The notes beneath the pieces are model-generated. The model did not search any database and was not told the DNA's origin. It saw only the letters and a list, made by a program, of their open reading frames with translations. Both the position numbers and the translations under genes were made by a program. DNA of 64,000 nucleotides. Source: Myxococcota bacterium. GTDB taxonomy: Bacteria > Myxococcota_A > UBA796 > CAJQPC01. Where the stretch lies: contig DASCPX010000160.1 of the NCBI GenBank assembly GCA_036012755.1, forward strand, positions 32,001-96,000, in the 5' to 3' direction. Positions 583 through 61,035 of the stretch are shown one piece after another; position 1 is the stretch's first letter, and every line of letters begins with the position of its first letter.

Positions 583-2391
583 TCAGCGCCAGATCTCGCC
601 GGCCCCCGGCGCAAGGGTCCTTGCCCCGGCCTCGGCGACGGCGCCGGAGAGCAGCTCCGTTCCCCCGGGGCCCTGGACCGTGATCGACGAGTCGCCCAGG
701 TTGATGAGCGCAGTGCTGCCATCCTCGAGGCTCCAGACCGGGGGCACCACATCGTTGGGATCGGCGAACTCCGCCAGCGGGCCGAAGTCGGGGCCGCTGG
801 TGTAGCGCAGCGGGTCTCGAGGCCTGGCGGTGACGCCGATGAGCGCGAGCAGGTCGGGGTCCAAGGCGAGCTCGAGGCGATCTTCGGCCAGCGAGGGGAG
901 GTCGTCGCCGAGTATCCAGGGCCCTCCGGAGAGCACCTGGGCAACGACGGCTCCGGTCGCCTCCGTATCCGAGAAGGGGTCTCGCAGGATCAGCTGGTCC
1001 GGATCGATCCACCACCACACGCCGTTCTGCCAGCTGCGGGCAGCGGTCGCGCGAGCAGCCCAACGCAGGTACTCCCGGCGCGGGTCCGGGTCGAACTCGA
1101 AGGCGATGTCGGCCCCTGTCCGGTAGCTGTCGGCGTAGCCCAGGGACGGCAACATCGGGGCGCCGCAAGCGAGGATCCAGGTCTGCTCCCCGGCAGCCTC
1201 GCGCAGGATCTGCATGCCGCGGATGTAGGCCTCCATACCGGTGACGTCCTCCTGGCGCACCCCCTCCTGGGCGCCCGCGTAGAGGAAGTCCAGCTTGAGG
1301 TAGGTCCAGCCCTCGTCGACGCGAACGCTGATCTGCTCGGCCAGCCAGTCCGCCGCGTCGGGATGGGTCACGTCGACGATGAGGTAGTCGTGGTCGCCGA
1401 AGTTCGAGAAGGACAGGGGCTCCCCTTCGGCGTCGTGAACGAACCAGTCCGGGTGCTCGTCGTAGAGGTACTCCCGCTCCACGTAGAAGGGCGCCATCCA
1501 GAGGCCAGGGGTGAGCCCCTCGGCCCGAATGTCCTCGGCCAGCTGGGCCATGCCGCTCGGGAAGTCCTCTCCGGCCTCCCACTGTCCCCACTGCACCTGC
1601 CAGCCGTCGTCGATCTGGAAGATCTCGAGGGCCTCGATCTGCGAGGCGACAGCAAGGTTCTCGCGGACCTGCTCCTCTGTGATCTCCGAGTAGAACTGGT
1701 ACCAGGTAGCCCAACCGACCGGCGGATCTTCGCGCACCTGGACGCCGTTGTGGACCCGCGCCGCCAAGGCATAGTCCCCGAAGCCGTCGGCGAGGCCAGC
1801 GGCGAAGCCCCCGTGGACCGGATCCAGCGTCAGCGGGGTCGAGGGGGTCACCGTGATGCGCTCTCCCCGACCTCCCCAGACAAAGGCCGCGAGGTCGTCG
1901 CCGAAGGCCGCGTAGGCCTTCGTCCGCGTCGCCGACAGCGCGCCGATCAGGAAGCACCCGCCGTCGGGCCGACCGGCGAGCCCCACCCACCAGGAGGTCG
2001 CGGAGGTCTCCTCGGTGGCGCTCATCCCGTCCCCATCTCCCCCGGCGACAGGCAAGCCGTCCTCCCACTCCAGCGGCTGCAGTTCGGTGACACCCGACCA
2101 CCACCAGGACTGGTAGCCCTGCTTCCAGACGACGAGGTCCTCGTCTCCGGAGAGCTCCATCTGGCCAGAGAGCACCAGGGCCTCGAAGACCCCCTCGCCG
2201 GAGATCTCGGGCTGCAGGCCGCCCTCGACCTCTGTGAACGAGACCTCGAGCTCACCCTCGCCGTGGACCTCTGCCCGGAGCTCGACGTACCCGCAGTGAC
2301 CCTCGGCCACCAGCACATCTCCCTCCAACCGAAGCGGGTCGCTGCACAAGGCCGGGGCCTCCGAGCTGCAACCGAGGAGGAGGACGAGCAT
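583..2391 (-). CDS. Alpha-galactosidase, glycoside hydrolase family 36 (predicted lipoprotein)
   Basis: GWATWYQFY, FQIDDGWQ, FPSGM..GLWMAPF, YLKLDFLY and DPD motifs typical of GH36; N-terminus MLVLLLGC. Confidence 0.85.
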   Translation of the reverse strand: MLVLLLGCSSEAPALCSDPLRLEGDVLVAEGHCGYVELRAEVHGEGELEVSFTEVEGGLQPEISGEGVFEALVLSGQMELSGDEDLVVWKQGYQSWWWSGVTELQPLEWEDGLPVAGGDGDGMSATEETSATSWWVGLAGRPDGGCFLIGALSATRTKAYAAFGDDLAAFVWGGRGERITVTPSTPLTLDPVHGGFAAGLADGFGDYALAARVHNGVQVREDPPVGWATWYQFYSEITEEQVRENLAVASQIEALEIFQIDDGWQVQWGQWEAGEDFPSGMAQLAEDIRAEGLTPGLWMAPFYVEREYLYDEHPDWFVHDAEGEPLSFSNFGDHDYLIVDVTHPDAADWLAEQISVRVDEGWTYLKLDFLYAGAQEGVRQEDVTGMEAYIRGMQILREAAGEQTWILACGAPMLPSLGYADSYRTGADIAFEFDPDPRREYLRWAARATAARSWQNGVWWWIDPDQLILRDPFSDTEATGAVVAQVLSGGPWILGDDLPSLAEDRLELALDPDLLALIGVTARPRDPLRYTSGPDFGPLAEFADPNDVVPPVWSLEDGSTALINLGDSSITVQGPGGTELLSGAVAEAGARTLAPGAGEIWR

Positions 2392-2426
2392 TGTCCCCTG
2401 TTACACCGCGCGGCCTGGAGGTGCTC

Positions 2427-3077
2427 ATGCGCGTCGTCATCACCGGAGCCAATCGCGGCATCGGCCTGGAGCTGGCTCGGCTCTCCCTGGCACGAGGGGA
2501 CGAGGTCGTCAGCGCCTGCCGTGTCGACGAGGGGACCGGTGTCGGCGAGGTCGTCGAGGGCGTCGACGTGACGACGGAGGAGGGGGTCTCGGCCCTCGAG
2601 TCGGCCCTCGGAGAGAGCGCGATCGACCTGTTGATCAACAACGCCGGACTGCTCCATCGGGTGGGACTCGGCGAGCTGGACTGGGAGAGCATCCGGCGCC
2701 AGATGGAGGTCAACGCCTATGGACCGCTGCGGGTCACCCAGCGCCTGCTCCCCCGCCTGCGGCGCGGCTCCAAGGTGGCGATCGTCACCTCGCGCATGGG
2801 ATCGATCGCCGACAACACCAGCGGGAGTCACTACGGCTACCGCATGTCCAAGGCGGCCGTGAACATGGCTGGCGCATCCCTGAGCCGGGACCTGGCTCCC
2901 CGAGGCATCGCCGTCTGCCTGCTCCACCCCGGCTACGTCACGACCCGCATGACGGGTTTCCACGGGAACTGGGGCGCCGAGGACGCTGCGAGGGGCCTGC
3001 TCGACCGCATCGACGAGCTCACCCTGGCCACCAGCGGCGGCTTCTGGCACGCCGAAGGTCAGCGCCTGCCCTGGTAG
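2427..3077 (+). CDS. Short-chain dehydrogenase/reductase, CsgA (C-factor)-like
   Basis: ITGANRGIG, NNAG, SRMGSI, YRMSK, LLHPGYV; GGAGG RBS before the ATG at 2427. Confidence 0.85.
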   Translation: MRVVITGANRGIGLELARLSLARGDEVVSACRVDEGTGVGEVVEGVDVTTEEGVSALESALGESAIDLLINNAGLLHRVGLGELDWESIRRQMEVNAYGPLRVTQRLLPRLRRGSKVAIVTSRMGSIADNTSGSHYGYRMSKAAVNMAGASLSRDLAPRGIAVCLLHPGYVTTRMTGFHGNWGAEDAARGLLDRIDELTLATSGGFWHAEGQRLPW

Positions 3078-3238
3078 GCCCGTGGTCGTTGGACCTCCTC
3101 GCTGGGAGGGGCACGGTCACGAAGTCGGAGGCCCGACGACCACGGTCGATCGCCAGATGCCGCGGCGGGCGCGCGGTTACCGGATCATCCCGAGAACTCG
3201 CGCGTCCCACGGGGCCGCCACCTTCCCCTCCTGAGCTG

Positions 3239-3643
3239 CTACCACTCGTATGACTCAGCGTTGGTCAGCTCCACCGTGTCGCCGCGGCTGGTGAAGATGT
3301 CCGGGTCGAGCTCCAGCACGAGGCGCTCCGCCGGGATCCACTCGAGGACGCGGTTCTTCGCTGTCCCCTCTTCCGGGTAGGTGGAGCCCAAGTTGTCGAG
3401 CATCTCGATCGTGACGTACCTCCCGTCGACGTCGTAGGTCCCCGTCCAATGGAAGTACCAGCCGTACTCGCCGCCCTCGGCCTCGCTCCCCTCACCCACG
3501 AAGTCCGGCTCCACGTCGAACTCGGCCTGCCCGAAGAACCACGCAACGTTGCTGTCCGCGATTGACCACTTTCCATGAAGATCGGACCGCTGTTCCGGGA
3601 ACGGACCGCAGGCGAGCATGAGCACCCATAGGCTGGCGCTCAT
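3239..3643 (-). CDS. Hypothetical lipoprotein (paralog A of a tandem pair)
   Basis: MSASLWVLMLAC start; near-identical blocks shared with 3836..4249 (EQRSDLHGKWS, AWFFGQAEF, EGTAKNRVLEWIP, ERLVLELDPD). Confidence 0.7.
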   Translation of the reverse strand: MSASLWVLMLACGPFPEQRSDLHGKWSIADSNVAWFFGQAEFDVEPDFVGEGSEAEGGEYGWYFHWTGTYDVDGRYVTIEMLDNLGSTYPEEGTAKNRVLEWIPAERLVLELDPDIFTSRGDTVELTNAESYEW

Positions 3644-4286
3644 GCGCAGGCTCCCGGGATCCACTCGAAGCGCACGTCGTAGGGGAACTCGAAGGCGGGG
3701 TCGACCACCGATGACTGCTCTTCCGCGATGCACATCATCCTGGCGTGGGGCCGCGGGCCACGAGGTTGGGCGCCGAGGCGAAGAGGATTGCCCGGGCTCG
3801 TCCCCGCGGGGTCATCACCTTCCCCAACCGAGCCACTACCAGTCGTATTGCTCAGCGTATGTCAGCTCGATCGTCGTTCCGGTGAAGACGTCCGGGTCGA
3901 GCTCGAGCACGAGCCGTTCTGTCGGGATCCACTCGAGGACGCGGTTCTTCGCTGTCCCTTCAACCGGCTCGGTGTAGCCCATGTTGTCGAGCATCTCGAT
4001 CGTGACGTTCCTCCCGTCAACCTCGTAGGTACCGGTCCAAGAGAACGACCAGAAGTACGGGCCATCCTCGACTTCGCTAGCCTCGCCAACGAAGTCCGGC
4101 TCGACTTCGAACTCAGCCTGCCCGAAGAACCAGGCCGTGTTGCTCGGCCACTGCCCCGGACCGGCTGGTGACCACTTCCCATGAAGATCGGACCGCTGCT
4201 CCGGGTACGAACCACAGGCGACCATGAGCAACGTCAGGCTGCCGATCATGCGCAGGCTCCCGGGATCCACTCGAAGCGAACGTCGA
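3641..4286. repeat. Two copies of a ~40-bp element immediately upstream of the duplicated genes (3641-3680 and 4247-4286)
   Basis: catgcgcaggctcccgggatccactcgaagcgcacgtcgt versus catgcgcaggctcccgggatccactcgaagcgaacgtcga; 2 mismatches in 40. Confidence 0.85.
3836..4249 (-). CDS. Hypothetical lipoprotein (paralog B of a tandem pair)
   Basis: MIGSLTLLMVAC start; paralog of 3239..3643. Confidence 0.7.
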   Translation of the reverse strand: MIGSLTLLMVACGSYPEQRSDLHGKWSPAGPGQWPSNTAWFFGQAEFEVEPDFVGEASEVEDGPYFWSFSWTGTYEVDGRNVTIEMLDNMGYTEPVEGTAKNRVLEWIPTERLVLELDPDVFTGTTIELTYAEQYDW

Positions 4287-6606: not shown

Positions 6607-6741
6607 CTACTTCTTCTTGCGCTTGTTCTTCTTCTTCTTGGATGCCTTGCTGCGCTTGTTCGCCGGGTCACGGAAGCCCGGCTTGTTCGCCTTGTCCTCA
6701 TCCTTGGAGAGGACGCTCTTGGGGGCCTGGGTCTTGTTCAT
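6607..6741 (-). CDS. Small 44-aa Lys-rich basic protein
   Basis: MNKTQAPKSVLSKDEDKANKPGFRDPANKRSKASKKKKNKRKKK; ATG overlaps the upstream TGA (ATGA coupling); GGAGG upstream; AAG-dominated Lys codons. Confidence 0.7.
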   Translation of the reverse strand: MNKTQAPKSVLSKDEDKANKPGFRDPANKRSKASKKKKNKRKKK

Positions 6742-7538
6742 GGCGCCGACCCTAACCTCCCGGCGGCCTCCGGGTAGGTGTACCAGGTGTCCATGTCCGT
6801 GTAGACGCGCCGCCCGAGCGCCAGGAGCGCGACACCGGTCGCCGCGGAGAGGATCCCGGCGGTGCCGAGGGCGACCTCGGTCTCCGACATCGTTCCGTTC
6901 TCGAGCCCCTCGGCCCCGACCATCATGCCGTTGTAGCCGACCACGCACAGCGCGACACCGGCGGTCGTGTTCATGACCTCCAGCGCGCGGATCCGCCTGT
7001 AGGTCCCCACGTCGCCGACGGCCCGTGCGAACTGCCCGGCGGTGAGCTCGTCATCCGCCAGGTATGCCTCCACCCCACCAGCTGACTGGAGCAGCTCGAT
7101 CGGCGCGGTCCCAGGCAGCTCCGCTCCACCGGCGAGGGCCACAGCGTGGTCGAAGCGGTACCAGCGCTCGAGTCGGTCGAGCTCGTGCTTGCGAGCCGAG
7201 TAGACCGTGAGGAAGGTCGCCAGGGTCATGCCACCGGCCAGCATCACGAGGCTGCCGCCCATCATGGTCATCGGGTCGGCCTGGTTGATGCCCACGAAGA
7301 GCCCGCCTGCGCCAGCCGCCATGATCGGCATCCCCACCGCCCACCCAAGGCCCCTGGCGCGCCGGTTCTCCTGGGCAGCCAAGGTGTATGCCTCGGCCAC
7401 CGGGACATCGCCGACCAGCCCGGCGAACTCGCCTGGAGTGAGCTCACGACCTTCGGAGTGTGCGTCGAAGGACTCACGGTCCCCTCGGATGACCGGGCCT
7501 TGCTCAGCGGCGAGAGCGGTCGCGACCAGCCACATCAT
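6738..7538 (-). CDS. Hypothetical membrane protein with a two-fold internal repeat
   Basis: MMWLVATALA signal-like start; repeats ELTPGEFAGLVGD/ELTAGQFARAVGD, each followed by two hydrophobic segments and a WY motif. Confidence 0.7.
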   Translation of the reverse strand: MMWLVATALAAEQGPVIRGDRESFDAHSEGRELTPGEFAGLVGDVPVAEAYTLAAQENRRARGLGWAVGMPIMAAGAGGLFVGINQADPMTMMGGSLVMLAGGMTLATFLTVYSARKHELDRLERWYRFDHAVALAGGAELPGTAPIELLQSAGGVEAYLADDELTAGQFARAVGDVGTYRRIRALEVMNTTAGVALCVVGYNGMMVGAEGLENGTMSETEVALGTAGILSAATGVALLALGRRVYTDMDTWYTYPEAAGRLGSAP

Positions 7539-7558: not shown

Positions 7559-8560
7559 ATGATGTGGCTCGGACTCCTCTCCAGCAGCTTCGCGGCAGGC
7601 GCTTGGTGCGACGGTGCCTTCGCTGTCTCCACGTCAGACGGCGTGGTCGTCTTCCGAGATGGGGAGGGCCAGCGCCTAACGACCGGCGCCCAGACCACCG
7701 CCCTCGGCTGGCAGCCGGACTGCCGCCGCCTCGCCGTGGCCTCTTCTGCGCTGTTCCTCTTCGACTTCCACTTCGGCGAGGAGGACCCGAAGTTCCGGAC
7801 CACGCTGGACGACAGCCACGTCAGCGGCACCGGTCCGCGCGCGGAGCGCATCGTCTGGTACGAGGACAGCCTGGCCTACATCGAGCACGGCACACGCCCC
7901 GAGCTGCGCATCCTGGACGCTACGGCGATGACCTGGGTCTCGGTGGCGCAGACGACCCAGGCGGTCACCGACCTGGCCCTGAGCGGGCCGCGCTCCGGCA
8001 GCTTCGTCCTCGGGGAGAAGATGCTGTGGCGCTTCGATCCCGACAAGACGATCATGGTCTACATGGCGAAGCGGGTGGCGGTGCACCCGGAGACAGAGGC
8101 CCTCGAGGGCCCGAGTCACGACCTGACTATCGGTGGAGCGCCCTTCGCGGAGCCCGTTCTCCTCGTAGGACTGAGCGCTGACGGAGCTCGGGCCCTGGTC
8201 AGGCTCGATCCGGTGTCCTACGGCCCCTACGCGAGCGTCTCCACCAGCGGCGCGAGGACGACCTTCGGCATCGGTCCGAACCCACAGCGCGTCGACGAGG
8301 GCTGGGCCAGCGACGGCTCCTTCCTGGTCGGTCCGTCCCAAGGACAGCTCGTGCGCGACGACGGCGCCGGCTCACGGACGGAGCTCGGCGTGCTCATGGA
8401 CGAGGTCGCCGAGGTCCACATCAATGAGGACGGAAGCCGCGTCGCGGTCGTGAAGACCGACGGCAGCGTGGTCTTCGTCGACCTCGCCGATCAGCCCTCG
8501 CGCTCGAACACGGCCGCTGCGCCCATTCCGCCACCGATGCACATCGAGACCACGCCGTAG
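7559..8560 (+). CDS. Hypothetical secreted beta-propeller (WD40-like) protein
   Basis: Blade-like motifs ALGWQPDCRRLAVAS, GLSADGARALV, GWASDGSFLV, INEDGSRVAV; 3' end overlaps fadA tail-to-tail. Confidence 0.6.
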   Translation: MMWLGLLSSSFAAGAWCDGAFAVSTSDGVVVFRDGEGQRLTTGAQTTALGWQPDCRRLAVASSALFLFDFHFGEEDPKFRTTLDDSHVSGTGPRAERIVWYEDSLAYIEHGTRPELRILDATAMTWVSVAQTTQAVTDLALSGPRSGSFVLGEKMLWRFDPDKTIMVYMAKRVAVHPETEALEGPSHDLTIGGAPFAEPVLLVGLSADGARALVRLDPVSYGPYASVSTSGARTTFGIGPNPQRVDEGWASDGSFLVGPSQGQLVRDDGAGSRTELGVLMDEVAEVHINEDGSRVAVVKTDGSVVFVDLADQPSRSNTAAAPIPPPMHIETTP

Positions 8561-12121: not shown

Positions 12122-13027
12122 ATGCTCCAGCTCGCCGTGGGTTGCGCCACGACGCCCTCGGCTGGGCCGAACTCGGTCATCGAGACGGTGAACATCACCC
12201 AGACCTCGACCTGGACGGTCGTGGAGCCGACCCCCGGAGGTCCGCCCTTCGCCGGACCGATGCTCCCGGTGGGCGAGACCGCACTGGAGGGTGGCGTCGC
12301 CGGGACGTGGGTGGACTCGGACCCCAACGCCCAGGTCGGCAACGCCCCGGCCTTGCTCCAGGCGGAGGCCAGCGTCCGCTGGCAGGTCGCCAGCACCTTC
12401 GAGATCTCGGTCTTCGGCCTGGCGGCCTCTCCGAAGCTGGCCGAGCCGATCGCCCCACGCGACGTCTTCGTGGCCAGCACCGCCTGGCGGCTGGGCACCG
12501 GTCTTCGGTTCGGCGAGCGCCTGCCGAGCGGTGTCGGCATGCGCATGGGCGGCTGGGTGGCGGCTGGCCAGGACGGGCTCTACCGCGAGGTGCGCGAGGT
12601 CCTCGACTACGAAGAGGTCGACAACAGCACGGGCAGTACCAGCACGACGACGCAGGAAGAGGTCTTCTACGAGACCTCCCGCCCCCTGGTGCCCTGGGGG
12701 CTCGTGAGCGCCGGGGTGGACTACCAGCCCTTCCGAGGGCCGACGATCGGTGTCGGCGCGGCAGTACAGAACGTGCCGGTGTACGTCGGCAACACGACGG
12801 CCACCCGGCACTGTGTGGCCATCGACGGTGAGCAGACCTGTGACGGCACCCTCGAGATCGAGCCCTCCGAGATGGCGGTCGTCGTCTCCCCCTGGCTCGA
12901 CCTCGGGTGGTTCGCTGGCGAGCACACCTCGCTCAACGCCCAGCTCTGGTGGCACGCCTACGGGCCGGAGTCGCTGACACGGTCTGTTCCCCTCGGCGCG
13001 AGGGCCGCGCTCGGCTTCCGCTGGTAG
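12122..13027 (+). CDS. Hypothetical outer-membrane beta-barrel-like protein
   Basis: MLQLAVGC start; alternating beta-strand pattern; terminal aromatic residue (RAALGFRW). Confidence 0.6.
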   Translation: MLQLAVGCATTPSAGPNSVIETVNITQTSTWTVVEPTPGGPPFAGPMLPVGETALEGGVAGTWVDSDPNAQVGNAPALLQAEASVRWQVASTFEISVFGLAASPKLAEPIAPRDVFVASTAWRLGTGLRFGERLPSGVGMRMGGWVAAGQDGLYREVREVLDYEEVDNSTGSTSTTTQEEVFYETSRPLVPWGLVSAGVDYQPFRGPTIGVGAAVQNVPVYVGNTTATRHCVAIDGEQTCDGTLEIEPSEMAVVVSPWLDLGWFAGEHTSLNAQLWWHAYGPESLTRSVPLGARAALGFRW

Positions 13028-13036: not shown

Positions 13037-14488
13037 ATGTGGCTGACGCTCGCGCTCGCGTGCACCCGTGGACCTGCAGCAGACGCGCCGGATGTGGTCA
13101 TCGTGATCGTGGACGCGCTTCGCGCCGACGCGCTGGGCTACCCGGGCAAGAGCCGGGATGCCTCACCCAACCTCGACGCCCTCGCCGCCGAGTCGGCGCG
13201 CTTCACGCGTGCCTACTCCGCAGCGCCCTGGACGCTGCCCTCGGTCGCGACGCTGCTGACAGGCCAGTGGCCCCGGGAGCACCGCGTGGTCACCGATGTG
13301 CTCTCAGAGGGTCGGTTCGGGGTCCTCCCCCGCCGGAGTTGAACCCTCGCCGAGACCTACAGCGACCGCGGCTACCGGACAGGCGCATGGGTCAACGACA
13401 CCTACCTCGCTCCGGAGTTTGGCCTGGACCAGGGCTTCGACGTCTACGCCTACCAGGGCGCGAGCTCGCAGTACGGGCACCGCTCGGCAGCAGACACGGT
13501 CGCGGCGATGCTGGAGTGGGTCGACGACCGCGAGCAGCCCTTCTTCGCCGTCGTGCATCTCAGGGAGCCCCAGCACAACTACCAGCCCAACGCCAGCTGC
13601 CGAGGTCGCTTCACCGAGGGCCTCACGCCGAGCTTCGAGCTGCCAGTCTCGCAGGAGATCCTCAAGAGCTGGATTCGCCGAACCGAGCCCGTCAGCGACG
13701 AGGACATCGACTACGTCAGGCGCCTCTACGACGAGGAGGTCTGCACGATGGACCAGGCCATCGGCGAGCTCGTCGCGGGCCTGGAGGCTCGGGAGCGGTG
13801 GGACGACACCTGGTTCGTCCTCACCGGGGATCACGGCGAGGAGCTCTGGGACAGCGGCAACTTCGGCCACGGCCACACAGTCAAGTCGGTCCTCACGAAC
13901 GTCCCCCTGCTCGTGCGGATACCGGGATTCCCGACCCACAGCAACGACTCGGTGGTGGGCCACGTCGAGCTCATCAGCTCCCTGCGACAACAGCAAGGAC
14001 CCCTCTGGCTGATGCTCGAGACTGGCGAGACCGTCGAGGGTCGCGTCGCCTTCTCCAGCTCTCCGAGTCGTACCCTCGACCAGTTCTCCGTGGTCACGGA
14101 GACCGAGCGCACGGTCGTCCTCCCCGACTCCAAGACCGCGATGGTGTGGGACCTCGACGAGCGGGGCTGGGAGACCGGGATCAACCGGACCCACAACACC
14201 GAAGCGGCGGTCCGGGACAGCCCCGAGTACGCCCTCCTGGCGACTGTCAAGGAGGAGCCCCTGGACCCGACGCTGCCCGCGCGCTTCAGCCGCATGGACG
14301 GCGTCGACCTCGACCGCTGGGCGGAGCTAGCTGAGCGCAGGGGACTGAGATCAGCCCACGATCCGAGGCTCAGGGGACGACCTCGCAGCTGGAGCCTTCC
14401 TCGTCGAGGTCGAAGTCGATCACGGTCGGGGACTCGCCGCCGGCGCCGACCGTCAGGTTCCCGCTGCGCACGTAGGTCGGCAGGATGA
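13037..14488 (+). CDS. Sulfatase-like / alkaline phosphatase superfamily lipoprotein, interrupted by an in-frame TGA at 13340-13342; 3' end uncertain
   Basis: VIVIVDALRAD, APWTLPS..LLTG, REPQHNY, TGDHGEE, GHGH; both ORF halves are in the same frame and colinear with the paralog at 51118. Confidence 0.8.
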
Positions 14489-16153: not shown

Positions 16154-16840
16154 ATGATCGCCCTCGCGATCATCGCCTGCGTCGACACGCCACCACTCGG
16201 GCCACCGACGAAGACCACGCCGCCGAAGCTGGCGGCCGGCCGCCCTACCTTTCCCGAGCGGGCCCGGTGGTCTGATCACTCCAGGAAAGACCGAGTTCTT
16301 CGAGGTCGGCCTGTCCGGGGGGGCCTGGAGCACCGGACAGCGCGGGGGCCTCAGCCTGAGCCTGCCAGCTGGAGACCATGCCCCCGGCTCGTTGACAGCC
16401 GTCGTCGTCCCACCGACCGGGTCGGGCTTCATCAACGGCATGCACCTTGGCGAGGACGACTTCCGCCAACAGGAGCTCTACCGGCAGGCCGGTCTCGCCG
16501 TCCTCACCTTCGAGGTGGACGGACTGGTCAGCGTCGAGCAGTACTTCGCTCACTTCGCAGGCGCCGAGAACGTGCGCGATGCCGTGCACTACGCACGAAC
16601 CTCGGTTCCCGAGATCGATGCGGCGCGGATCTTCGTGGCCGGCCACGGAATGGCCGGTGACCTGGCGCTCTTGTACGGCTCCATCGATCCGGAGCTCGCA
16701 GGCGTCCTGGCCTACAACAGCGGAGGCAGGGGCTGCTGGTCGCCGCAGCCGAGCATGACGATGAGCAAGGAGCCTCCTGGGAGAAGCCTACGCCAGGGAT
16801 CGAGTCCACGGCTTCGGCTTCTGTTAGGGGGCAGCCATGA
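16154..16840 (+). pseudogene. Alpha/beta-hydrolase (peptidase S9-like) lipoprotein, frameshifted near 16260 and truncated after ~16730
   Basis: MIALAIIAC..PTFPER continues in another frame as LSLPAGDHAPGSLTAVVVPPTGS..EIDAARIFVAGHGMAG; no catalytic Asp/His region follows. Confidence 0.6.
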
Positions 16841-21455: not shown

Positions 21456-21530
21456 GGGGTGCCATCGTAGTCAGCGCTTGTAAGAACTGCTCGTGCAACC
21501 CGTTGTCCGGTCCACCCCGGAGGCCGTCCG

Positions 21531-46083: not shown

Positions 46084-46084
46084 G

Positions 46085-46627: not shown

Positions 46628-46634
46628 GGCGTCC

Positions 46635-46964: not shown

Positions 46965-46967
46965 GGT

Positions 46968-47372: not shown

Positions 47373-47384
47373 CTCGGCAATCTC

Positions 47385-48608: not shown

Positions 48609-48612
48609 TGGT

Positions 48613-51117: not shown

Positions 51118-52431
51118 GTGGGCCTCCTGGCGCTGATTCTGGGCTGTTCGTGCGCGGAGGACCGCGACCCCGATGTCGTCTTCGTGCTGGTCGACACCCT
51201 GCGAGCCGACGCCCTGTCCTTCGCAGGCGCTCCCCTGCCCACCTCACCTCACCTCGACGCCCTCGTGGAGAGCGAGGCCGCCTGGTACACCCGTGCCTAC
51301 AGCGCCTCCAGCTGGACGCTGGCCTCGACGGCCACGCTGATCACGGGCCAACGGCCATTCAGCCACGGCGTCGTGCGCGCCGCGGACAACGACCGCTGCT
51401 ATGGCCGGCTGCAAGAACACCTGCCGACCCTGGGCAGCGTCTGGCGAACCCGTGGCTACAGAACGGGCGCCTGGATCAACAACGGCTTCCTCGCCCCCGA
51501 GTTCGGCTTCGCCCGGAGCTTCGACGTCTACGACTACGAGGGCGCCGAACTCCTCGGTCACAGGACCGCCGCCCAGACCGTAGACGCAGCGCTGGAGTGG
51601 CTCGACGCCGGCGAGGGCCCGGCCTTCATGATGGTCCACCTGATGGAGCCCCACGTCGACTACGACCCGGGACCCCCATTCGCGGGGACCTTCACCTCGA
51701 CAATGCCGGCGAGCATCTCGATCCCCCTCGGCTCGGCCCTGCACGGGGGCTGGATGGCCAGGGTCATCCCGCCTCCAGACGACGACGACCGCGCCTTCGT
51801 CCGGGCCGCCTACCAGGAGGAGGTCCTCGCGGTCGACCAGGCGGTCCACACCTTGATCGAGGGCCTGAAGAGCCGGGATCGGTGGGACGACGCCTTTTTC
51901 GTGCTCACCAGCGACCATGGCGAGGAGTTCTGGGAGCACGGCGGCTTCGAGCACGGCCACACGATGCGCTCGGAGGTGACCAGGGTGCCGCTCATCGTGA
52001 AGGCCCCGACCCTGGAGCCGGGCAAGCGTGACCAGCTGGTGGACGCCGTCAGCGTCTCTCGGGCCCTGGCCGCCGGACACCCCGGACCGCTGGTGACAGG
52101 TGACGCCTTCGCGCTGTCCGAGGACATCCTCTACGGCCCCCAGATGGCGAGCATCGTGACCCCCACCCATCGCCTGGAGGTCGCGCTGCAGACGAACGAG
52201 GTGACCCTCTGGGAGCTCGATCCCTCCGGCTGGGAGCCCGAGCGGTGGATGCAGGACTCGCCAGAGGTCCGCCAGGTGGCCGGAGAGCTGCGGGACCAGC
52301 TCCGCAGCACCCGCGGTGGACTGGCGGCCGCGCAACCCGTGAACCCCACCGGCATCGATCGCGAGGTCTTCCAGATGCTGCGCGAGCTCGGCTACATCGA
52401 CGGCGGCGCCGTGGCGAATCCGTGTGAGTGA
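51118..52431 (+). CDS. Sulfatase-like / alkaline phosphatase superfamily lipoprotein
   Basis: VLVDTLRAD, SWTLAS..LITG, MEPHVDY, TSDHGEEF, EHGH, LRELGYI. Confidence 0.85.
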   Translation: MGLLALILGCSCAEDRDPDVVFVLVDTLRADALSFAGAPLPTSPHLDALVESEAAWYTRAYSASSWTLASTATLITGQRPFSHGVVRAADNDRCYGRLQEHLPTLGSVWRTRGYRTGAWINNGFLAPEFGFARSFDVYDYEGAELLGHRTAAQTVDAALEWLDAGEGPAFMMVHLMEPHVDYDPGPPFAGTFTSTMPASISIPLGSALHGGWMARVIPPPDDDDRAFVRAAYQEEVLAVDQAVHTLIEGLKSRDRWDDAFFVLTSDHGEEFWEHGGFEHGHTMRSEVTRVPLIVKAPTLEPGKRDQLVDAVSVSRALAAGHPGPLVTGDAFALSEDILYGPQMASIVTPTHRLEVALQTNEVTLWELDPSGWEPERWMQDSPEVRQVAGELRDQLRSTRGGLAAAQPVNPTGIDREVFQMLRELGYIDGGAVANPCE

Positions 52432-57653: not shown

Positions 57654-59333
57654 ATGCACGCACCAATCCTGCTCCTCGCCGGCTTCGGCAGCCTCACGGG
57701 CTGTACCGACTACGAGCTGGTCACCGACCCCGGTAACTTCCAGGGCATCGATGACGACCGCGTGCCGGACATCGCCACGGATCCGACCGAGTACGACTTC
57801 GGTGCGCTGCAGGTCGGCGACCGCGAGTCTGCCACGATCGACGTGCGCGTCCTCAACAACGGCGACGCCGACCTCAGGATCACCGAGATCCGCCTGAGCG
57901 ACGCGGAGGCCCCCTACGACCTGGGCCCGGTCGACTCCGTCCTCATCCCCGCGGGCATGGCCACCCAGTTCACCGTGACCTTCACTCCCGCCACGGCTGA
58001 GGACTACGAAGCCAGCATCCTCATCGACAGCAACGACCCGGACACGCCCACCGCAGAGGTCCGCCTGCTCGGCCAGGGCATCGCTCCGATCATCGACGTC
58101 GACCCCGCCGAGTACGACTACGGCACGATGTACATCGGCTGCACGAGCTGGCTCCCGATCACCATCGCCAACGTCGGCAACGACAACCTGATCATCGACG
58201 AGTTCCAGTACTCGACCGGCTCCACCGACTTCGTGTTCGACCCGATCGGAAACCAGCTGCCAGAGGATCTCCAGCCCGACGTCTTCAACGGCGACATCAC
58301 CGAAGAGGCCTGGTCACTGAGCCCCAACACCTCTGTCGAGGTCTGGGTCGACTACGCCCCCCTCGATGAGTACCAGGACATCGCCTACCTGCAGATCTAC
58401 AGCAACGACCCGGCCGCGCCGATGGCTCGGGCGACGCAGAACGGCAACGGCGCCCTCGCCGGAGAGAACACGGACGTCTTCGAGCAGCCCATCAACGGCG
58501 CCACGGACATCATGTTCGCGGTCGACTGGTCCTGCTCCATGTGGGACGACGTCTCGAACGTCGATTCCAACTTCGACATCTTCGTCACCACGCTGGCCTC
58601 GATGGACGCCGACTATCACGTGTCCGTCGTGACAGAGGACGATGGCTGCATCAACTACCCCGCCGGCACCCAGCCCTACATCGACAACACCATGTCGCTG
58701 TCGGACCAGGAGGACGTGTTCGGGACGATGCTCTGCGAGAGCTACAGCGGCGTCTACTGCAACAGCTACGGAAGCAACACCGAGCGCGGCTTCATGCTGC
58801 TGGAGGCGGGCCTGAAGACCGCCAACATCCAGACCGGTGGCTGCAACGAGGGCTTCTACCGCGAGAACGCAACGCTCTCGCTGGTCGGCGTCTCCGACGA
58901 GCCCGAGCAGAGCGTCAACCCGTACACCTACTACGTCTCGCTGTTCCAGAGCATGAAGGACGACACCGACGACGTGGTCATGCACGCCATCGGCGGTGAC
59001 TACCCGACCGGCTGCGGCACGAACCAGGCCTACACCGGCTTCTACGAGGCCACCGTGGCATCCGGCGGTGTCTTCCTCAGCATCTGCGCCACCGACTTCG
59101 GCTCCCACCTCGAGACCCTCGCAGAGGGCTCCGCCGCGGACCTCACGAGCTTCGAGCTGACCGACATCCCGGTGCCGGACACCATCGAGGTCACGGTCAA
59201 CGGCATCCCGACGACCGTGGGCTGGTCCTACAACAACGCTGACAACAGCATCGACTTCGAAGAGTCCTACGTGCCGGAGGGTGGCTCCACCGTCCAGGTC
59301 TACTACGCCCTCTTCGGCGACTGCGACGGCTGA
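57654..59333 (+). CDS. Lipoprotein with two ASH/choice-of-anchor-D Ig-like domains and a vWA domain
   Basis: Repeated DFG..NxGxxxL..SNDP modules; MIDAS-like DWSCS; VSDEPEQS; SICATDF. Confidence 0.8.
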   Translation: MHAPILLLAGFGSLTGCTDYELVTDPGNFQGIDDDRVPDIATDPTEYDFGALQVGDRESATIDVRVLNNGDADLRITEIRLSDAEAPYDLGPVDSVLIPAGMATQFTVTFTPATAEDYEASILIDSNDPDTPTAEVRLLGQGIAPIIDVDPAEYDYGTMYIGCTSWLPITIANVGNDNLIIDEFQYSTGSTDFVFDPIGNQLPEDLQPDVFNGDITEEAWSLSPNTSVEVWVDYAPLDEYQDIAYLQIYSNDPAAPMARATQNGNGALAGENTDVFEQPINGATDIMFAVDWSCSMWDDVSNVDSNFDIFVTTLASMDADYHVSVVTEDDGCINYPAGTQPYIDNTMSLSDQEDVFGTMLCESYSGVYCNSYGSNTERGFMLLEAGLKTANIQTGGCNEGFYRENATLSLVGVSDEPEQSVNPYTYYVSLFQSMKDDTDDVVMHAIGGDYPTGCGTNQAYTGFYEATVASGGVFLSICATDFGSHLETLAEGSAADLTSFELTDIPVPDTIEVTVNGIPTTVGWSYNNADNSIDFEESYVPEGGSTVQVYYALFGDCDG

Positions 59334-59351
59334 TGCTCACGCGGTGAGTAC

Positions 59352-59382
59352 GGCGGCCGGCTCCTTCGGGATGCCGGCCGTC
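59352..59382 (+). terminator. GC-rich hairpin with cUUCGg tetraloop
   Basis: GGCGGCCGGC-TCC-TTCG-GGA-T-GCCGGCCGTC; weak U tail, so it may be a stabilising stem instead. Confidence 0.55.
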
Positions 59383-59420
59383 CTGTTCCTTGTGCATACT
59401 CACACTCGGAGGAAACGCCG

Positions 59421-60413
59421 ATGCTCTGGGGCCTGATCCTGTCATGCCTGTTCTGCAGCGACAACAACACCCCGCAATGGGACACAGGCGGGTGGTGGGA
59501 CTCCGGGGACTGGTGGAGTGACTCCAGCGACGACTGCTACCCGTGGATCTCCATCCGCTACGAGGACGAGCCAGTCGAAACGCTGGACTTCGGCACGGTC
59601 GGCGCGGCGGAGCCCGTCACGGTGGCCCTCACGATCCTGAACAAGGGCGACTGCGACCTCGAGATCGACGACGCCCAGACCACGGACGCGGACGCGCCCT
59701 TCAGCGTTGGCGCCCTGGACTGGCCGATCATCGCCCCGGACGAGGAGGCCGAGCTGGAGGTCACGTTCTCCCCCACAGAGGCAGGGAGCTTCGCGACGAC
59801 CATCGAGGTGACCAGCAACGATCCCTTCGAGGACCTCTACAGCATCGAGCTGGTGGGCGAGCTCACCAGCGGTGGCCTGGAGATCTCTCCCCAGCTCATC
59901 GACTTCGGGTCGATCGAGGTGGGCTGCGAGGTCGAAGAGACGGCGACGGCCTCCAACGTAGGCAGCGGCCCCGTCACCATCGAGTCCATCGAGATCTCCT
60001 CCGGGAGCGACGAGATCACCTTCGCAACCGACACGCTCCCGGCGACCCTCGAGAGCGGCGAGAGCCTCGACCTGCGCGTCGCCTACGCACCAGTCGACGA
60101 GTTCGACGACCAGGCCTACCTGACCGTCACCTCGACCGACCCGTCGAACCCCGTGCTCCTCGTCACCATCGACGCCGCCGGGGTCTTCACCGCAGAGTTC
60201 GAGGACAGCTTCGAGCAGGAGGGCTCGCGGCGGGTCTACATCCTCACCGAGGTCGCGGTCGAGAGCACCATCGAGGTGCGCGTCTCCGGCGTGACGGCGT
60301 CCGGTTGGAGCTTCGACAACTCCGCGAACGCCGTGGTCTTCGACGAGGGCAACGTGCCCACCGAGGGCTCGGTCATAGAGATCAGCTACGCGCGCCAGCC
60401 TGTCTGCGAGTAA
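59421..60413 (+). CDS. Paralog with two ASH/Ig-like domains and the C-terminal domain, no vWA
   Basis: NKGDCDL, SNDP, EVGC, YAPVDEFDD, IEVRVSG..GWSF..PTEGS align to the 57654 protein. Confidence 0.8.
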   Translation: MLWGLILSCLFCSDNNTPQWDTGGWWDSGDWWSDSSDDCYPWISIRYEDEPVETLDFGTVGAAEPVTVALTILNKGDCDLEIDDAQTTDADAPFSVGALDWPIIAPDEEAELEVTFSPTEAGSFATTIEVTSNDPFEDLYSIELVGELTSGGLEISPQLIDFGSIEVGCEVEETATASNVGSGPVTIESIEISSGSDEITFATDTLPATLESGESLDLRVAYAPVDEFDDQAYLTVTSTDPSNPVLLVTIDAAGVFTAEFEDSFEQEGSRRVYILTEVAVESTIEVRVSGVTASGWSFDNSANAVVFDEGNVPTEGSVIEISYARQPVCE

Positions 60414-60480
60414 GGCGTAATCCGAGGCGTCACAGACCCCCCTGTCGGGCACGTAAGCCTTAGCGGGCGGAGGTCACTTC

Positions 60481-61035
60481 ATGCTGCTGTTCATCGCATC
60501 TGCTTGTCTGTCCGAAGGAACCGTCGGTGTCGATCTGACCGCGCCGCTCCCAGCCGTCGACGAGGTCCCCACGATCCACCTGTCGGCCTCGGAGCTGGAC
60601 TTCGACGCCACCCGACCCGGCGAGCCCCAGGAGTCCGTCGTCGCCACGCTGAGCTTCGATCCCACGACCGCGTTGGACTACGAAGACACCCTGTCGGTGA
60701 GCTCGAACGACCCGGACACCCCAGTCGCCACCACGACCTTGTTCGGCCTGGGCATCGCCCCGGTCCTGGAGTTGTTGCCCAGCGAGATCGAGGTCGGGCT
60801 GGTGCCCGTCGGCTGCAACTACGAGGTCGACTTCTTCCTCTCGAACGCAGGCAACGAGGACCTCGTCGTCGAGGACTACGCCTTCGCGGCGGACTCCATG
60901 GAGGTGGTGGACACCCCCACCCTGCCTTGGGAGCTCGACGTCGGCGAGGACATGCAGCTCACGGTGGTCTATACGCCGACGCAGGCTGTGTTCGAGGAGG
61001 GAAAGCTCACGCTGGTGAGCAACGACCCGCTCGGC
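60481..61035 (+). pseudogene. Third ASH/Ig-like paralog, internally deleted and 3'-truncated
   Basis: GGAGG RBS, MLLFIASAC; first Ig domain is about 40 aa shorter than in the paralogs; homology ends at SNDPLG. Confidence 0.7.

What the first reader, a model, noticed from the sequence alone, without database searches (positions are those of the whole stretch)
583..60507. Ultra-short, uncharged signal peptides across the window: a possible unusual export/lipidation system
Seen: about 18 proteins from many unrelated families start with a few hydrophobic residues and a lipobox-like Cys at position 7-12, with no Lys/Arg. They are MLVLLLGC (2391), MSASLWVLMLAC (3643), MIGSLTLLMVAC (4249), MLQLAVGC (12122), MWLTLALAC (13037), MIALAIIAC (16154), MSAVVILLAC (19617), MSLLLTLAC (21455), MILLLAC (30704, and 21531 after one indel fix), MLLLLGLLAC (27896), MLLALVIGC (35828), MTTALLFLAC (36472), MSPVLLAVFAC (38228), MLLLFAC (44254), MGLLALILGC (51118), MLWGLILSC (59421) and MLLFIASAC (60481). 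Equally short AxA-type signals occur at 7538, 7559, 24001 and 32874. Several starts are pinned by GTGA/TAGTG overlaps (19617, 24001, 30704, 35828) or by a close divergent neighbour (2391, 51118). Known: canonical Sec/SPII signals have a basic n-region and the Cys at about residue 15 or later; 5-8 hydrophobic residues cannot span a bilayer as a helix. Inference: this lineage may use modified SecA/SecY/SRP, Lgt, LspA or LepB, and standard predictors would miss much of its secretome. I cannot confirm from here that this is unreported.
Basis: partly seen in the sequence, partly recalled or inferred. Interest (0 to 1): 0.85.

Follow-up and report, generated by a model that had tools for sequence, protein, structure and literature searches.

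The report
Ultra-short uncharged export signals, genome-wide
In this uncultured marine myxobacterium and some of its relatives, hundreds of proteins that must leave the cytoplasm, including the essential outer-membrane assembly protein BamA, start with only a methionine and about six to twelve greasy residues and no positive charge, far shorter than the textbook bacterial signal peptide.

Summary
All 17 lipobox N-termini I could look up sit at the stated coordinates. Fifteen lie in frames with coding-type codon usage; 16154 and 38228 are probably spurious ORFs, and 21531 needs an indel that one metagenome contig carries.

Genome-wide, 723 of 5858 gene starts fit the pattern, against 138 of 81751 internal start codons. 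In 488 genes the short start is the first possible start after an in-frame stop.

The starts have the same upstream ribosome-site profile as other genes. They are conserved in orthologs, some with stops 1-6 codons upstream. Short signal peptidase I-type signals also occur, including on BamA, TolC-like, TonB-receptor and OmpA-family proteins.

The trait is graded within one order of uncultured Myxococcota. I found it in 0 of 91 lipoprotein starts from 9 genomes outside that order.

Orthologs show these are canonical signals that lost their Arg/Lys n-region.

SecY, SecA, Ffh, SRP RNA, LepB, LspA, Lgt and Lnt are all present. I found no convincing trait-linked change in SecY, SecA or Ffh, so the "modified machinery" idea is not supported.

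Six literature searches found no report of this. The scan has noted the trait before on two other pieces of this genome and in other lineages.

The parts
2368..2391 (-). Signal-coding segment MLVLLLGC (Cys8) of a 602-aa melibiase/GH31-like protein (583-2391)
   Evidence: ATG start, TAA stop 3 codons upstream, no alternative start. Pfam.
3608..3643 (-). Signal-coding segment MSASLWVLMLAC (Cys12) of a small lipoprotein (3239-3643), tandem paralog of the next one
   Evidence: alternative GTG 7 codons upstream; upstream LLR -20.7; GGGAG at -11..-7. The ATG start is favoured but not pinned.
4214..4249 (-). Signal-coding segment MIGSLTLLMVAC (Cys12) of the paralogous small lipoprotein (3836-4249)
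   Evidence: same upstream sequence as 3643; upstream LLR -14.1.
7506..7538 (-). SPase I-type short start MMWLVATALAA|EQ of a 266-aa protein (6738-7538)
   Evidence: alternative starts 3-4 codons upstream would add MMPR; the best match on the syntenic G002 contig (only 27% identity) starts MWLAWIAASAAA with a stop 3 codons upstream.
7559..7603 (+). Short uncharged hydrophobic start MMWLGLLSSSFAAGA of a 333-aa protein (7559-8560); cleavage site uncertain
   Evidence: TAG stop 2 codons upstream, no alternative start.
12122..12145 (+). Signal-coding segment MLQLAVGC (Cys8) of a 301-aa protein (12122-13027)
   Evidence: first start after the stop (28 codons upstream); coding LLR 0.38 per codon.
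13037..13063 (+). Signal-coding segment MWLTLALAC (Cys9) of a sulfatase-family gene that carries an in-frame TGA at 13340-13342
   Evidence: TAG stop 3 codons upstream; the G002 ortholog starts MWLPLLFGC with a stop 4 codons upstream. Pfam.
19588..19617 (-). Signal-coding segment (V)SAVVILLAC (Cys10) of a 397-aa BNR-like protein (18424-19617)
   Evidence: GTG start, TGA stop 2 codons upstream; the X2 contig spans the site with no change in these codons.
21429..21455 (-). Signal-coding segment MSLLLTLAC (Cys9) of a 613-aa protein (19614-21455)
   Evidence: stop 5 codons upstream, no alternative start.
23969..24001 (-). SPase I-type short signal (V)ILALSTLALA|EG of a 515-aa thioredoxin-TPR protein (22454-24001)
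   Evidence: stop 11 codons upstream, no alternative start, GGAG upstream; the G002 ortholog starts VILLLSSVSLA|QG.
27896..27925 (+). Signal-coding segment MLLLLGLLAC (Cys10) of a 277-aa PPIC-type PPIase (27896-28729)
   Evidence: 19 ortholog loci all have the aligned lipobox Cys. G005 has a stop 6 codons upstream of MLSLLALLAC.
30704..30724 (+). Signal-coding segment (V)ILLLAC (Cys7) of a 400-aa esterase-family protein (30704-31906)
   Evidence: GTG overlaps the stop of the upstream gene; GGAGG upstream. Coding potential picks this start, although upstream in-frame alternatives exist.
32845..32883 (-). SPase I-type short signal (V)TGMLLLVTAALA|QD of a YkuD L,D-transpeptidase (32326-32883)
   Evidence: no alternative start, GGAGGA upstream; the G002 ortholog starts MLILLSSLAQA|AD.
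35802..35828 (-). Signal-coding segment (V)LLALVIGC (Cys9) of a 662-aa PLD-domain protein (33840-35828)
   Evidence: no alternative start; abuts the end of the upstream gene; the G002 ortholog starts MLLLLSMAC.
36443..36472 (-). Signal-coding segment MTTALLFLAC (Cys10) of a 214-aa MopE-motif protein (35828-36472)
   Evidence: one alternative ATG 33 codons upstream; upstream LLR -15.1. The short start is favoured but not pinned.
44234..44254 (-). Signal-coding segment MLLLFAC (Cys7) of a 505-aa amidohydrolase (42737-44254)
   Evidence: TAG stop 3 codons upstream in G000 and G002. Orthologs have Cys at 7-11.
51118..51147 (+). Signal-coding segment (V)GLLALILGC (Cys10) of a 437-aa sulfatase (51118-52431)
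   Evidence: TAG stop 3 codons upstream; the G002 ortholog starts MLLLSLFLGC.
57654..57704 (+).
   Evidence: the G002 ortholog starts MIMLLAAGLGC (Cys11).
59421..59447 (+). Signal-coding segment MLWGLILSC (Cys9) of a 330-aa DUF1573/Ig-like protein (59421-60413)
   Evidence: no alternative start, GGAGGA upstream; identical start in G002 with a different upstream sequence.
60481..60507 (+). Signal-coding segment MLLFIASAC (Cys9) of a 210-aa DUF1573/Ig-like protein (60481-61113)
   Evidence: TAA stop 8 codons upstream, no alternative start, GGAGG upstream.
16154..16180 (+).
   Evidence: codon LLR -0.56 per codon over 168 codons. Not called by the gene finder. No Pfam hit.
38196..38228 (-).
   Evidence: codon LLR -0.17 per codon. 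Not called. No Pfam hit.

Best explanation
These are genuine translation starts, and they serve as minimal Sec-type signal peptides.

In this family of uncultured marine Myxococcota most exported proteins have lost the basic n-region. What remains is Met (or a GTG/TTG initiator), 5-10 very Leu-rich residues, and then directly either the lipobox Cys (consensus M-x-L-L-L-L-A-C, Cys most often at position 8) or a small-x-small signal peptidase I site.

They descend from canonical signals in two ways. Either the Arg residues behind an unchanged start codon were lost (BamA), or the start moved to a Met inside the hydrophobic core (PPIase).

Inferred: export still runs through the ordinary SecYEG/SecA route, followed by Lgt-LspA-Lnt or LepB. 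All of these are present and none shows a trait-linked change.

Inferred: the higher hydrophobicity of the short cores compensates for the missing charge. A 6-9-residue helix cannot span the bilayer, so the N-terminus must sit inside the lateral gate or membrane rather than at the cytoplasmic face. That would explain why Lys and Arg are nearly absent from short signals, not merely infrequent.
For: Starts:
- In 488 genes the short start is the first ATG/GTG/TTG after the upstream in-frame stop; in 239 of them the stop lies within 10 codons.
- Coding potential alone picks the same start in 558 of 607.
- The upstream base profile of the 607 matches that of 2458 reference genes (T at -12, A at -11, G at -10 to -8). 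An SD-like core is present in 55% against 53% in reference genes and 32% upstream of internal start codons.

Enrichment: 723 of 5858 gene starts against 138 of 81751 internal start codons.

Charge: 19 of 488 have Lys or Arg before the Cys.

Orthologs:
- PPIase: all 19 loci keep the aligned lipobox Cys. Eight have Cys at 9-12 and no charge (G005 and G018 pinned by stops 6 and 8 codons upstream). Ten have one or two Arg before the core and Cys at 13-20.
- Amidohydrolase: Cys at 7-9 with TAG 1-3 codons upstream in 4 of 5 orthologs. G020 has MMNRR... with Cys20.
- BamA: the same GTG-ATC start in G000, G003, G015, G017 and G019, with the Arg residues present in G017, G003 and G019 (G018 starts V-K-R) and absent in G000 and G015.
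- On the syntenic G002 contig, 10 of the 10 comparable window genes start short and uncharged.

Cargo must be exported: BamA, two further Omp85 proteins, 3 of 5 TonB receptors, TolC-like and many OmpA-family proteins; YkuD, PPIase, LysM, sulfatase and DUF1573 in the window.

Machinery is present.

Short cores are more hydrophobic: mean Kyte-Doolittle 2.59 against 2.09.

Tat-type and canonical Lys/Arg signals persist in the same genome, so n-regions are not being lost through systematic miscalling.
Against: - There is no protein-level evidence. No RNA run was listed, and no proteomics or Ribo-seq was available, so cleavage, lipidation and export are inferred.
- The gene calls come from my own codon-usage caller, not a standard tool.
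- The published compensation for a missing positive charge is a longer hydrophobic stretch (title of Hikita & Mizushima 1992, seen only in the reference list of PMC5427057). Here the stretch is shorter, so known E. coli behaviour does not predict that these signals work.
- Position -2 of the short lipobox is Leu in 62% of cases, outside the [ASTVI] rule quoted in PMC8689077.
- The comparison of machinery covered only SecY, SecA and the C-terminal 340 residues of Ffh in 18-20 genomes. The trait classes rested on small samples (20-80 kb per genome).
Confidence: 0.75

Rival explanations
1. The short signals work only because this lineage has an altered or additional targeting or translocation factor. 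Candidates are a prl-like SecY/SecA, a specialised LspA or Lgt paralog, or an unknown partner.
For: - G000 has tandem lspA-lspA-lgt-lgt plus three more lgt copies.
- The short class has its own lipobox flavour: Leu at -2 in 62% against 16% in canonical signals of the same genome.
- 14 SecA columns separate trait-high from trait-low genomes.
- E. coli data do not predict that such short signals function.
Against: - Lgt copy number is 3-6 throughout the order and 1-6 across the phylum. Tandem lspA also occurs in trait-low G020.
- SecY has 0 discriminating columns. Its plug region is the same in nearly all 20 genomes of the order, and the pore-ring residue 187 (position recalled) is Ala or Ser in all 20.
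- Ffh has 1 discriminating column.
- Most of the SecA columns are shared by trait-low G004 or not shared by trait-high G015, so they follow phylogeny.
- Both SPase I and SPase II signals are shortened, so a change in Lgt or LspA cannot be the common cause.
Confidence: 0.12
2. The short N-termini are not cleaved export signals. They could be uncleaved N-terminal membrane tethers, or tags for a route other than Sec.
For: - Six to nine residues cannot span a bilayer as a helix.
- There are no experimental data on processing.
- Earlier scan notes (unchecked) describe similar tags in bacteria said to lack SRP.
Against: - The short segments end in the same lipobox Cys or small-x-small motif, at the position homologous to the cleavage site of canonical signals in orthologs.
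- Cargo includes beta-barrel proteins that must be released into the periplasm.
- SRP protein and SRP RNA are present here.
Confidence: 0.07
3. This is an artefact. True starts lie upstream (non-canonical start codons, frameshifts, assembly errors), or the matches are chance.
For: - Two of the 17 window sites lie in non-coding-like ORFs, and one needs an indel.
- Five window sites have upstream in-frame alternatives.
Against: - 239 genes have an in-frame stop within 10 codons of the start.
- Enrichment at gene starts is about 70-fold over internal start codons.
- The ribosome-site profile equals that of reference genes.
- The same short starts occur in several independently assembled relatives.
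- A 7962-nt contig of another run spans three window starts with no change in their signal codons. That run may be a source of this assembly, so it is not fully independent.
Confidence: 0.04

Closest known systems
Canonical bacterial lipoprotein (Sec/SPase II) signal peptides. A passage of PMC8689077 describes them as 16-26 residues on average, made of a positively charged N-terminal sequence, a hydrophobic helix, and the lipobox [LV][ASTVI][GAS]C.
   Same: A hydrophobic core is followed directly by a lipobox with an invariant Cys. Lgt, LspA and Lnt are encoded. The position is homologous to canonical signals in orthologs. After the Cys comes a Pro/Asp/Glu-rich stretch that resembles the disordered tether described in PMC8689077.
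   Different: There is no charged n-region (19 of 488 have Lys/Arg). Cys sits at position 7-10 in most, not about 17-27. The core and the lipobox are merged, with Leu at -2 in 62%. The trait is proteome-wide in one lineage.
Canonical Sec/SPase I signal peptides. A passage of PMC5427057 describes them as generally 20-30 residues with n-, h- and c-regions.
   Same: A hydrophobic core is followed by small residues at -3 and -1. The cargo is periplasmic and outer-membrane proteins. LepB is present.
   Different: Total length is 9-17 residues, with no Lys or Arg. An example is BamA, with 13 residues before A|Q.
Engineered E. coli signal peptides without a positive N-terminus (Hikita & Mizushima 1992, J Biol Chem). 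I saw only the titles in the reference list of PMC5427057; the content is recalled.
   Same: They show that a Sec signal can work without a positive charge if the hydrophobic core compensates.
   Different: By its title, that compensation is a longer hydrophobic stretch. Here the stretch is shorter but more Leu-rich, and the state is natural and genome-wide.
Ultra-short signals noted earlier by this scan in hot-spring/WOR-3 bacteria and in a freshwater myxobacterium (AI notes, unchecked).
   Same: Met plus about 5-10 uncharged hydrophobic residues on exported proteins.
   Different: Those hot-spring lineages are reported to lack SRP and to have few lipoproteins with such tags. This genome has Ffh and SRP RNA, and most of its short signals are lipoprotein-type.

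Membership tests
Sec/SPase II lipoprotein signal peptide | Lipobox with an invariant Cys directly after a hydrophobic stretch | tested here: met
   1092 of 5858 genes have an N-terminal lipobox. In the short class -3 is Leu in 61%, -1 is Ala/Gly/Ser (required by the search pattern, so not an independent finding), and -2 is Leu in 62%, outside the [ASTVI] rule.
Sec/SPase II lipoprotein signal peptide | Positively charged N-terminal region | tested here: not met
   19 of 488 strictly pinned short signals have Lys or Arg before the Cys. The search pattern did not exclude them.
Sec/SPase II lipoprotein signal peptide | Length about 16-26 residues (PMC8689077 passage) | tested here: not met
   Among the 488 pinned signals, Cys is at position 8 in 153, 9 in 98, 10 in 77 and 7 in 72.
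Sec/SPase II lipoprotein signal peptide | Genome encodes Lgt, LspA and Lnt | tested here: met
   LspA x2, Lgt x5, Lnt at 246.6 bits, over the cut-off.
Sec/SPase II lipoprotein signal peptide | Positional homology with canonical signals in orthologs | tested here: met
   PPIase: 19 of 19 loci have the aligned Cys, 10 of them with an Arg-bearing n-region. Amidohydrolase: G020 has a canonical signal.
Sec/SPase II lipoprotein signal peptide | Diacylglyceryl modification and cleavage before the Cys | not testable with these tools
   Needs palmitate labelling with globomycin, or mass spectrometry.
Sec/SPase I signal peptide | Hydrophobic core followed by small-x-small, on proteins that must be extracytoplasmic | tested here: met
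   Of 3037 genes with no alternative upstream start, 291 have a hydrophobic-from-residue-2 start without a lipobox and a first polar residue by position 20; 73% of these have small-x-small near the run end. The set includes some cytoplasmic false positives.
Sec/SPase I signal peptide | Basic n-region and overall length of 20-30 residues (PMC5427057 passage) | tested here: not met
   Examples with pinned starts: 13 residues on BamA, 10 on a TolC-like protein, 11 on two TonB receptors, none with Lys or Arg.
Tat signal peptide | Twin-arginine motif in the n-region | tested here: not met
   The short signals have no Arg. Separate Tat-like lipoprotein starts with RR are present in the same genome.
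Altered (prl-like) Sec translocon | Trait-linked substitutions in SecY pore ring or plug, SecA or Ffh | tested here: inconclusive
   Discriminating columns: SecY 0, Ffh C-terminal part 1, SecA 14 (confounded by phylogeny). The pore-ring positions are recalled, and were mapped on the E. coli SecY chains. SecE, SecG, YidC, SecDF and FtsY were not examined.

The most novel reading that the evidence does not exclude
Sec-dependent export in this lineage needs neither a cytoplasmically anchored, positively charged N-terminus nor a membrane-spanning signal helix. About six Leu-rich residues behind an uncharged (formyl-)Met would be enough to open the translocon and to present the cleavage site. The signal would work as a half-spanning, N-terminus-buried plug, not the textbook hairpin. 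If so, the minimal bacterial signal peptide is about a third of the accepted length. This state has arisen repeatedly within one order of Myxococcota and, according to unchecked scan notes, in unrelated phyla as well.
Probability: 0.3. Interest if true: 0.85.

Novelty: new variant of a known kind. Interest (0 to 1): 0.7.

Why it matters
Signal-peptide rules are used to annotate every bacterial genome: a basic n-region, a core of about 10-15 residues, and a lipobox Cys at about residue 15-35.

Here about 800 lipoproteins, roughly 200 other exported proteins, and even BamA break those rules while the ordinary machinery is present. Rule-based and trained predictors may therefore miss most of the envelope proteome of this marine lineage, though I could not test that.

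The graded series among relatives runs from Arg-bearing signals with the Cys at 13-20 to 7-residue uncharged ones on the same orthologs. This is a natural experiment on the minimal requirements for Sec targeting, translocon opening and SPase I/II cleavage. It can be tested directly with reporter fusions.

Tried and rejected
- **DNA-pattern census across hundreds of genomes.** Local counts worked.
- **RNA evidence for starts.** No RNA holder was listed.
- **Lgt or LspA copy number as a cause.** Rejected.
- **SecY pore ring or plug as a cause.** No trait-linked column.
- **Acidic early mature region as a special compensation.** Rejected: net charge of +2..+11 is -1.28 in short and -1.34 in long signals of the same genome, against a proteome average of -0.58.
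- **Taxonomic naming.** The closest named records are only 'MAG: Myxococcota bacterium' or 'Deltaproteobacteria bacterium'.
- **Literature.** Six full-text searches found no description of such signals. Subscription journals and supplements were not searched.
- **Not run.** Structure or complex prediction, because the peptides are too short for the tool.

Full report
**The window and the observation**

The window is G000:C160:32001-96000 of a 6.73-Mb, 250-contig assembly with about 69% G+C.

I tabulated each site for start codon, upstream stop, alternative starts, codon usage and SD-like cores.

- Ten sites have no alternative ATG/GTG/TTG in the open frame: 2391, 12122, 13037, 19617, 21455, 35828, 44254, 51118, 59421, 60481. 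Eight of them have a stop only 2-8 codons upstream; at 12122 it is 28 codons upstream, at 59421 29 and at 35828 59.
- Five sites have upstream alternatives: 3643, 4249, 27896, 30704, 36472. Upstream codon usage is clearly non-coding at 3643, 4249 and 36472, weakly so at 30704, and neutral at 27896, which rests on orthologs.
- Two sites, 16154 and 38228, lie in ORFs with non-coding codon usage (-0.56 and -0.17 per codon). My gene finder does not call them, and they have no Pfam hit. I regard them as chance matches.
- The site at 21531 does not exist in the window as assembled. One contig of run X8 (depth 3) carries an extra C after 21538 that would create a short lipobox start for the LysM gene. 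The deeper X2 contig agrees with the window.
- Of the AxA-type starts, 7559, 24001 and 32883 are pinned. 7538 could begin 3-4 codons earlier and would then include an Arg.

**Genome-wide test against chance**

I built a codon-usage gene caller and obtained 5858 calls covering 92% of the genome. The start it chooses depends only on coding potential.

| Where the pattern 'initiator + 4-11 uncharged residues + [GAS]C' was sought | Matches |
|---|---|
| Called gene starts | 723 of 5858 |
| Internal in-frame start codons | 138 of 81751 |
| First starts of uncalled ORFs | 49 of 24302 |
| Gene starts after shuffling residues 2-16 | 24.8 per genome |

Of 1092 genes with an N-terminal lipobox, 607 have the Cys at position 13 or earlier even when the farthest start within 45 codons is used.

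- In 488 of them the short start is the very first start codon after the in-frame stop.
- In 239 of those the stop is within 10 codons.
- Coding potential picks the same start in 558 of the 607.
- Cys is at position 8 in 153, 9 in 98, 10 in 77 and 7 in 72 of the 488.
- 19 of the 488 have Lys or Arg before the Cys, although the pattern allowed them.

**Are the starts real?**

The 36-base profile around the 607 starts matches that of 2458 reference genes with unambiguous starts. Both show T at -12, A at -11 and G at -10 to -8.

| Set | SD-like core present at -22 to -4 |
|---|---|
| 607 short-signal starts | 55% |
| 2458 reference starts | 53% |
| Upstream of 1393 internal start codons | 32% |

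The peak of stops exactly three codons upstream (97 of 607) is the TAG of this TAGG-like ribosome-site motif.

A 7962-nt contig of run X2 spans 18701-26662 with six base differences and no gaps. None of the differences lies in the signal codons at 19617, 21455 or 24001. X2 is flagged as a possible source of this assembly, so it is not fully independent.

**Orthologs**

*PPIase (27896).* Nineteen loci across the order all keep the aligned lipobox Cys.
- Eight have Cys at 9-12 and no charge: G000, G001, G002, G005, G008, G009, G012, G018. G005 and G018 are pinned by stops 6 and 8 codons upstream.
- One, G006, has Cys at 15 and no charge.
- Ten carry one or two Arg before the core and have Cys at 13-20.
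- In G011 a Met sits inside the core, where the short forms begin.

*Amidohydrolase (44254).* Five orthologs have Cys at 7-11, four of them with TAG 1-3 codons upstream. G015 has Cys at 14 without charge. G020 has MMNRR... with Cys at 20. Two loci aligned too far inside the protein to see the N-terminus.

*BamA.* The signal was visible in 13 of 19 loci.
- Four lack Lys and Arg: G000, G002, G012 (with a stop just upstream) and G015.
- Eight carry them, and one is ambiguous.
- G000, G003, G015, G017 and G019 share the same GTG-ATC start. Here the Arg residues were lost behind an unchanged start codon.

*Syntenic contig of same-genus G002.* I queried 20 window sites against 100 kb of it.
- 13 sites had a match.
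- 10 of these could be compared at the N-terminus, and all 10 start short and uncharged. Two have stops 3-4 codons upstream: 13037, and 7538, whose match is only 27% identical.
- 3 matches began too far inside the protein.
- 7 sites had no match.

**Not only lipoproteins**

Among 3037 genes with no alternative upstream start, 708 are hydrophobic from residue 2.
- 404 of these have [GAS]C within 16 residues.
- Of the other 304, 291 reach their first polar residue by position 20, and 73% of those have small-x-small there. This set contains some cytoplasmic false positives.

Hallmark outer-membrane proteins carry such signals:
- BamA has 13 residues before A|Q, with a pinned start.
- Two further Omp85 proteins have them.
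- So do 3 of 5 TonB-dependent receptors whose N-terminus could be read. One of the other two is canonical and one is unclear.
- A TolC-like protein has a 10-residue signal with a stop 5 codons upstream.
- Many OmpA-domain proteins have them.

Canonical signals such as MKNSFSR... and MHKTLRH..., and Tat-like RR signals, are also present. About 85 lipoprotein starts are clearly canonical.

Pfam on the window's proteins shows typical extracytoplasmic families: YkuD, PPIC-type PPIase, LysM, two sulfatases, three DUF1573/Ig-like proteins, thioredoxin, the MopE motif, PLD, esterase, amidohydrolase and melibiase.

**Anatomy of the short class**

- The consensus is M-(x)-L-L-L-L-L-A-C, with Leu at 45-62% at positions -6 to -2.
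- Mean Kyte-Doolittle hydrophobicity is 2.59, against 2.09 for the uncharged run of the long signals.
- Position -2 is Leu in 62%, against 16% in the canonical signals of the same genome, which follow the usual V/A/T/S preference. The core and the lipobox appear to be merged.
- The early mature region is Pro/Asp/Glu-rich. Its net charge is the same in short and long signals (-1.28 and -1.34 per 10 residues), so it is not a special compensation.

**Phylogenetic extent**

I ran the same pipeline on fetched regions of other genomes. Each entry gives 'forced short' signals out of all N-terminal lipobox genes, with the length sampled.

| Kinship to G000 | Genome: forced short of lipobox genes (length sampled) |
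|---|---|
| Own genome | G000: 607 of 1092 (6.73 Mb) |
| Same genus | G002: 9 of 20 (80 kb) |
| Same family | G003: 6 of 13 (80 kb); G005: 6 of 11 (80 kb); G012: 3 of 8 (80 kb); G006: 2 of 9 (60 kb); G007: 2 of 4 (20 kb); G008: 3 of 9 (40 kb); G009: 2 of 16 (60 kb); G010: 1 of 1 (20 kb); G004: 1 of 5 (57 kb); G011: 0 of 3 (40 kb) |
| Other families of the order | G015: 6 of 11 (80 kb); G018: 6 of 18 (75 kb); G019: 2 of 7 (40 kb); G013: 1 of 7 (60 kb); G016: 1 of 11 (60 kb); G017: 1 of 5 (59 kb); G014: 0 of 3 (80 kb); G020: 0 of 2 (60 kb) |
| Outside the order (3 of the class, 6 of the phylum) | 0 of 91 (794 kb in all) |

The trait is therefore graded and patchy within one order and was not seen outside it in these samples. 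The samples are small and the genomes are related, so these figures describe the pattern and are not a statistical test.

The closest named records are only 'MAG: Myxococcota bacterium' or 'Deltaproteobacteria bacterium'. Near-identical DNA occurs in marine, seawater and hydrothermal-vent metagenomes of 12 studies.

**Machinery**

G000 encodes:
- one SecY and one SecA;
- one Ffh and an SRP RNA at 52.6 bits;
- three S26 signal peptidases and two deformylases;
- two tandem LspA followed by two tandem Lgt, plus three more Lgt;
- Lnt.

Lgt copy number is 3-6 in all 21 genomes of the order sample and 1-6 in the 61-genome phylum sample, so it does not follow the trait.

I aligned SecY to E. coli SecY chains. 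It keeps Ile at five of the six pore-ring positions; the positions themselves are recalled. The sixth is Ala or Ser in all 20 genomes of the order, whether the trait is high or low.

I compared 8-9 trait-high genomes with 7-8 trait-low genomes.
- No SecY column separates the two groups.
- One column of the C-terminal 340 residues of Ffh does.
- Fourteen SecA columns do. Most of these are shared by trait-low G004 or not shared by trait-high G015, so they follow phylogeny.
- I did not examine SecE, SecG, YidC, SecDF or FtsY.

**Reading**

Shown:
- The starts are real and the pattern is far beyond chance.
- The pattern covers both SPase I-type and SPase II-type signals, on proteins that must be exported.
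- The short signals derive from canonical signals.
- They coexist with canonical and Tat signals and with a complete, ordinary-looking Sec/SRP/Lgt-LspA-Lnt set.

Inferred:
- Export runs through that ordinary machinery.
- The Leu-rich core compensates for the lost charge.
- Because so short a segment cannot span the membrane, its N-terminus must be buried, which would select against Lys and Arg.
- After deformylation the alpha-amino group could supply one partial positive charge.

Cleavage and lipidation are untested.

**Comparison with what is known**

A passage of PMC8689077 gives lipoprotein signals as 16-26 residues with a positively charged N-terminus and the lipobox [LV][ASTVI][GAS]C. A passage of PMC5427057 gives signal peptides as generally 20-30 residues with a net-positive n-region.

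The reference list of PMC5427057 cites Hikita & Mizushima 1992. That title says a missing positive charge can be compensated by a longer hydrophobic stretch, which is the opposite direction in length from what is seen here.

Six full-text searches found no description of such signals. Subscription journals were not covered.

The scan itself has noted the same trait on two other pieces of this genome, in a freshwater myxobacterium, and in hot-spring/WOR-3 bacteria said to lack SRP. Those are unchecked AI notes. I checked SRP here and it is present.

**Verdict**

This is a real, lineage-specific, proteome-wide variant of Sec signal peptides. It is not a new export system on present evidence.

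Noticed in passing
window 13037-14334 (+), stop at 13340-13342: The sulfatase-family gene with the short signal has a single in-frame TGA at codon 102. The G002 ortholog (45% identity over 416 residues) has Thr at that position. It is a pseudogene, a strain variant or an assembly error.
   Followed up: partly
window 21503-22453 (+), around 21538: The frame of the LysM protein gene is broken at its 5' end in the window. One X8 metagenome contig (depth 3) has an extra C after 21538 that would give it a short lipobox start. The X2 contig (depth 11.5) agrees with the window.
   Followed up: partly
G000:C59:99943-102591: A tandem lspA-lspA-lgt-lgt cluster; the genome has five Lgt-family genes in all. 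Multiple Lgt copies (1-6) are common across the phylum sample, and tandem lspA also occurs in G020, G021 and G025.
   Followed up: partly
genome-wide, -12 to -7 upstream of start codons: The ribosome-site region shows a T-A-G-G-(G/A)-T-like preference rather than a plain GGAGG. Its TAG produces an in-frame stop exactly three codons upstream of 97 of the 607 short-signal genes.
   Followed up: partly
window 3239-3643 and 3836-4249 (-): Two tandem paralogous small lipoproteins (134 and 137 aa, no Pfam hit). Their signal, early mature sequence (CG.[FY]PEQRSDL) and the 16 bases before the start are near-identical.
   Followed up: no
window 44284-49074 (-): A run of genes whose N-termini look like an iron-sulfur cluster assembly operon (HscA-like, small Fe-S proteins, a cysteine desulfurase-like protein, a MerR/IscR-like regulator). 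This reading is from translated N-termini only and was not scanned against Pfam.
   Followed up: no
G000:C27:285091-286578 (-): The gene immediately downstream of ffh is itself a short-signal lipoprotein, starting (V)IVLLAC.
   Followed up: no
G000:C149:39842-40597 (-): The best BamD/YfiO-family match starts with a 17-residue uncharged signal ending in A-V-A and has no lipobox Cys. BamD may therefore not be a lipoprotein in this lineage.
   Followed up: no
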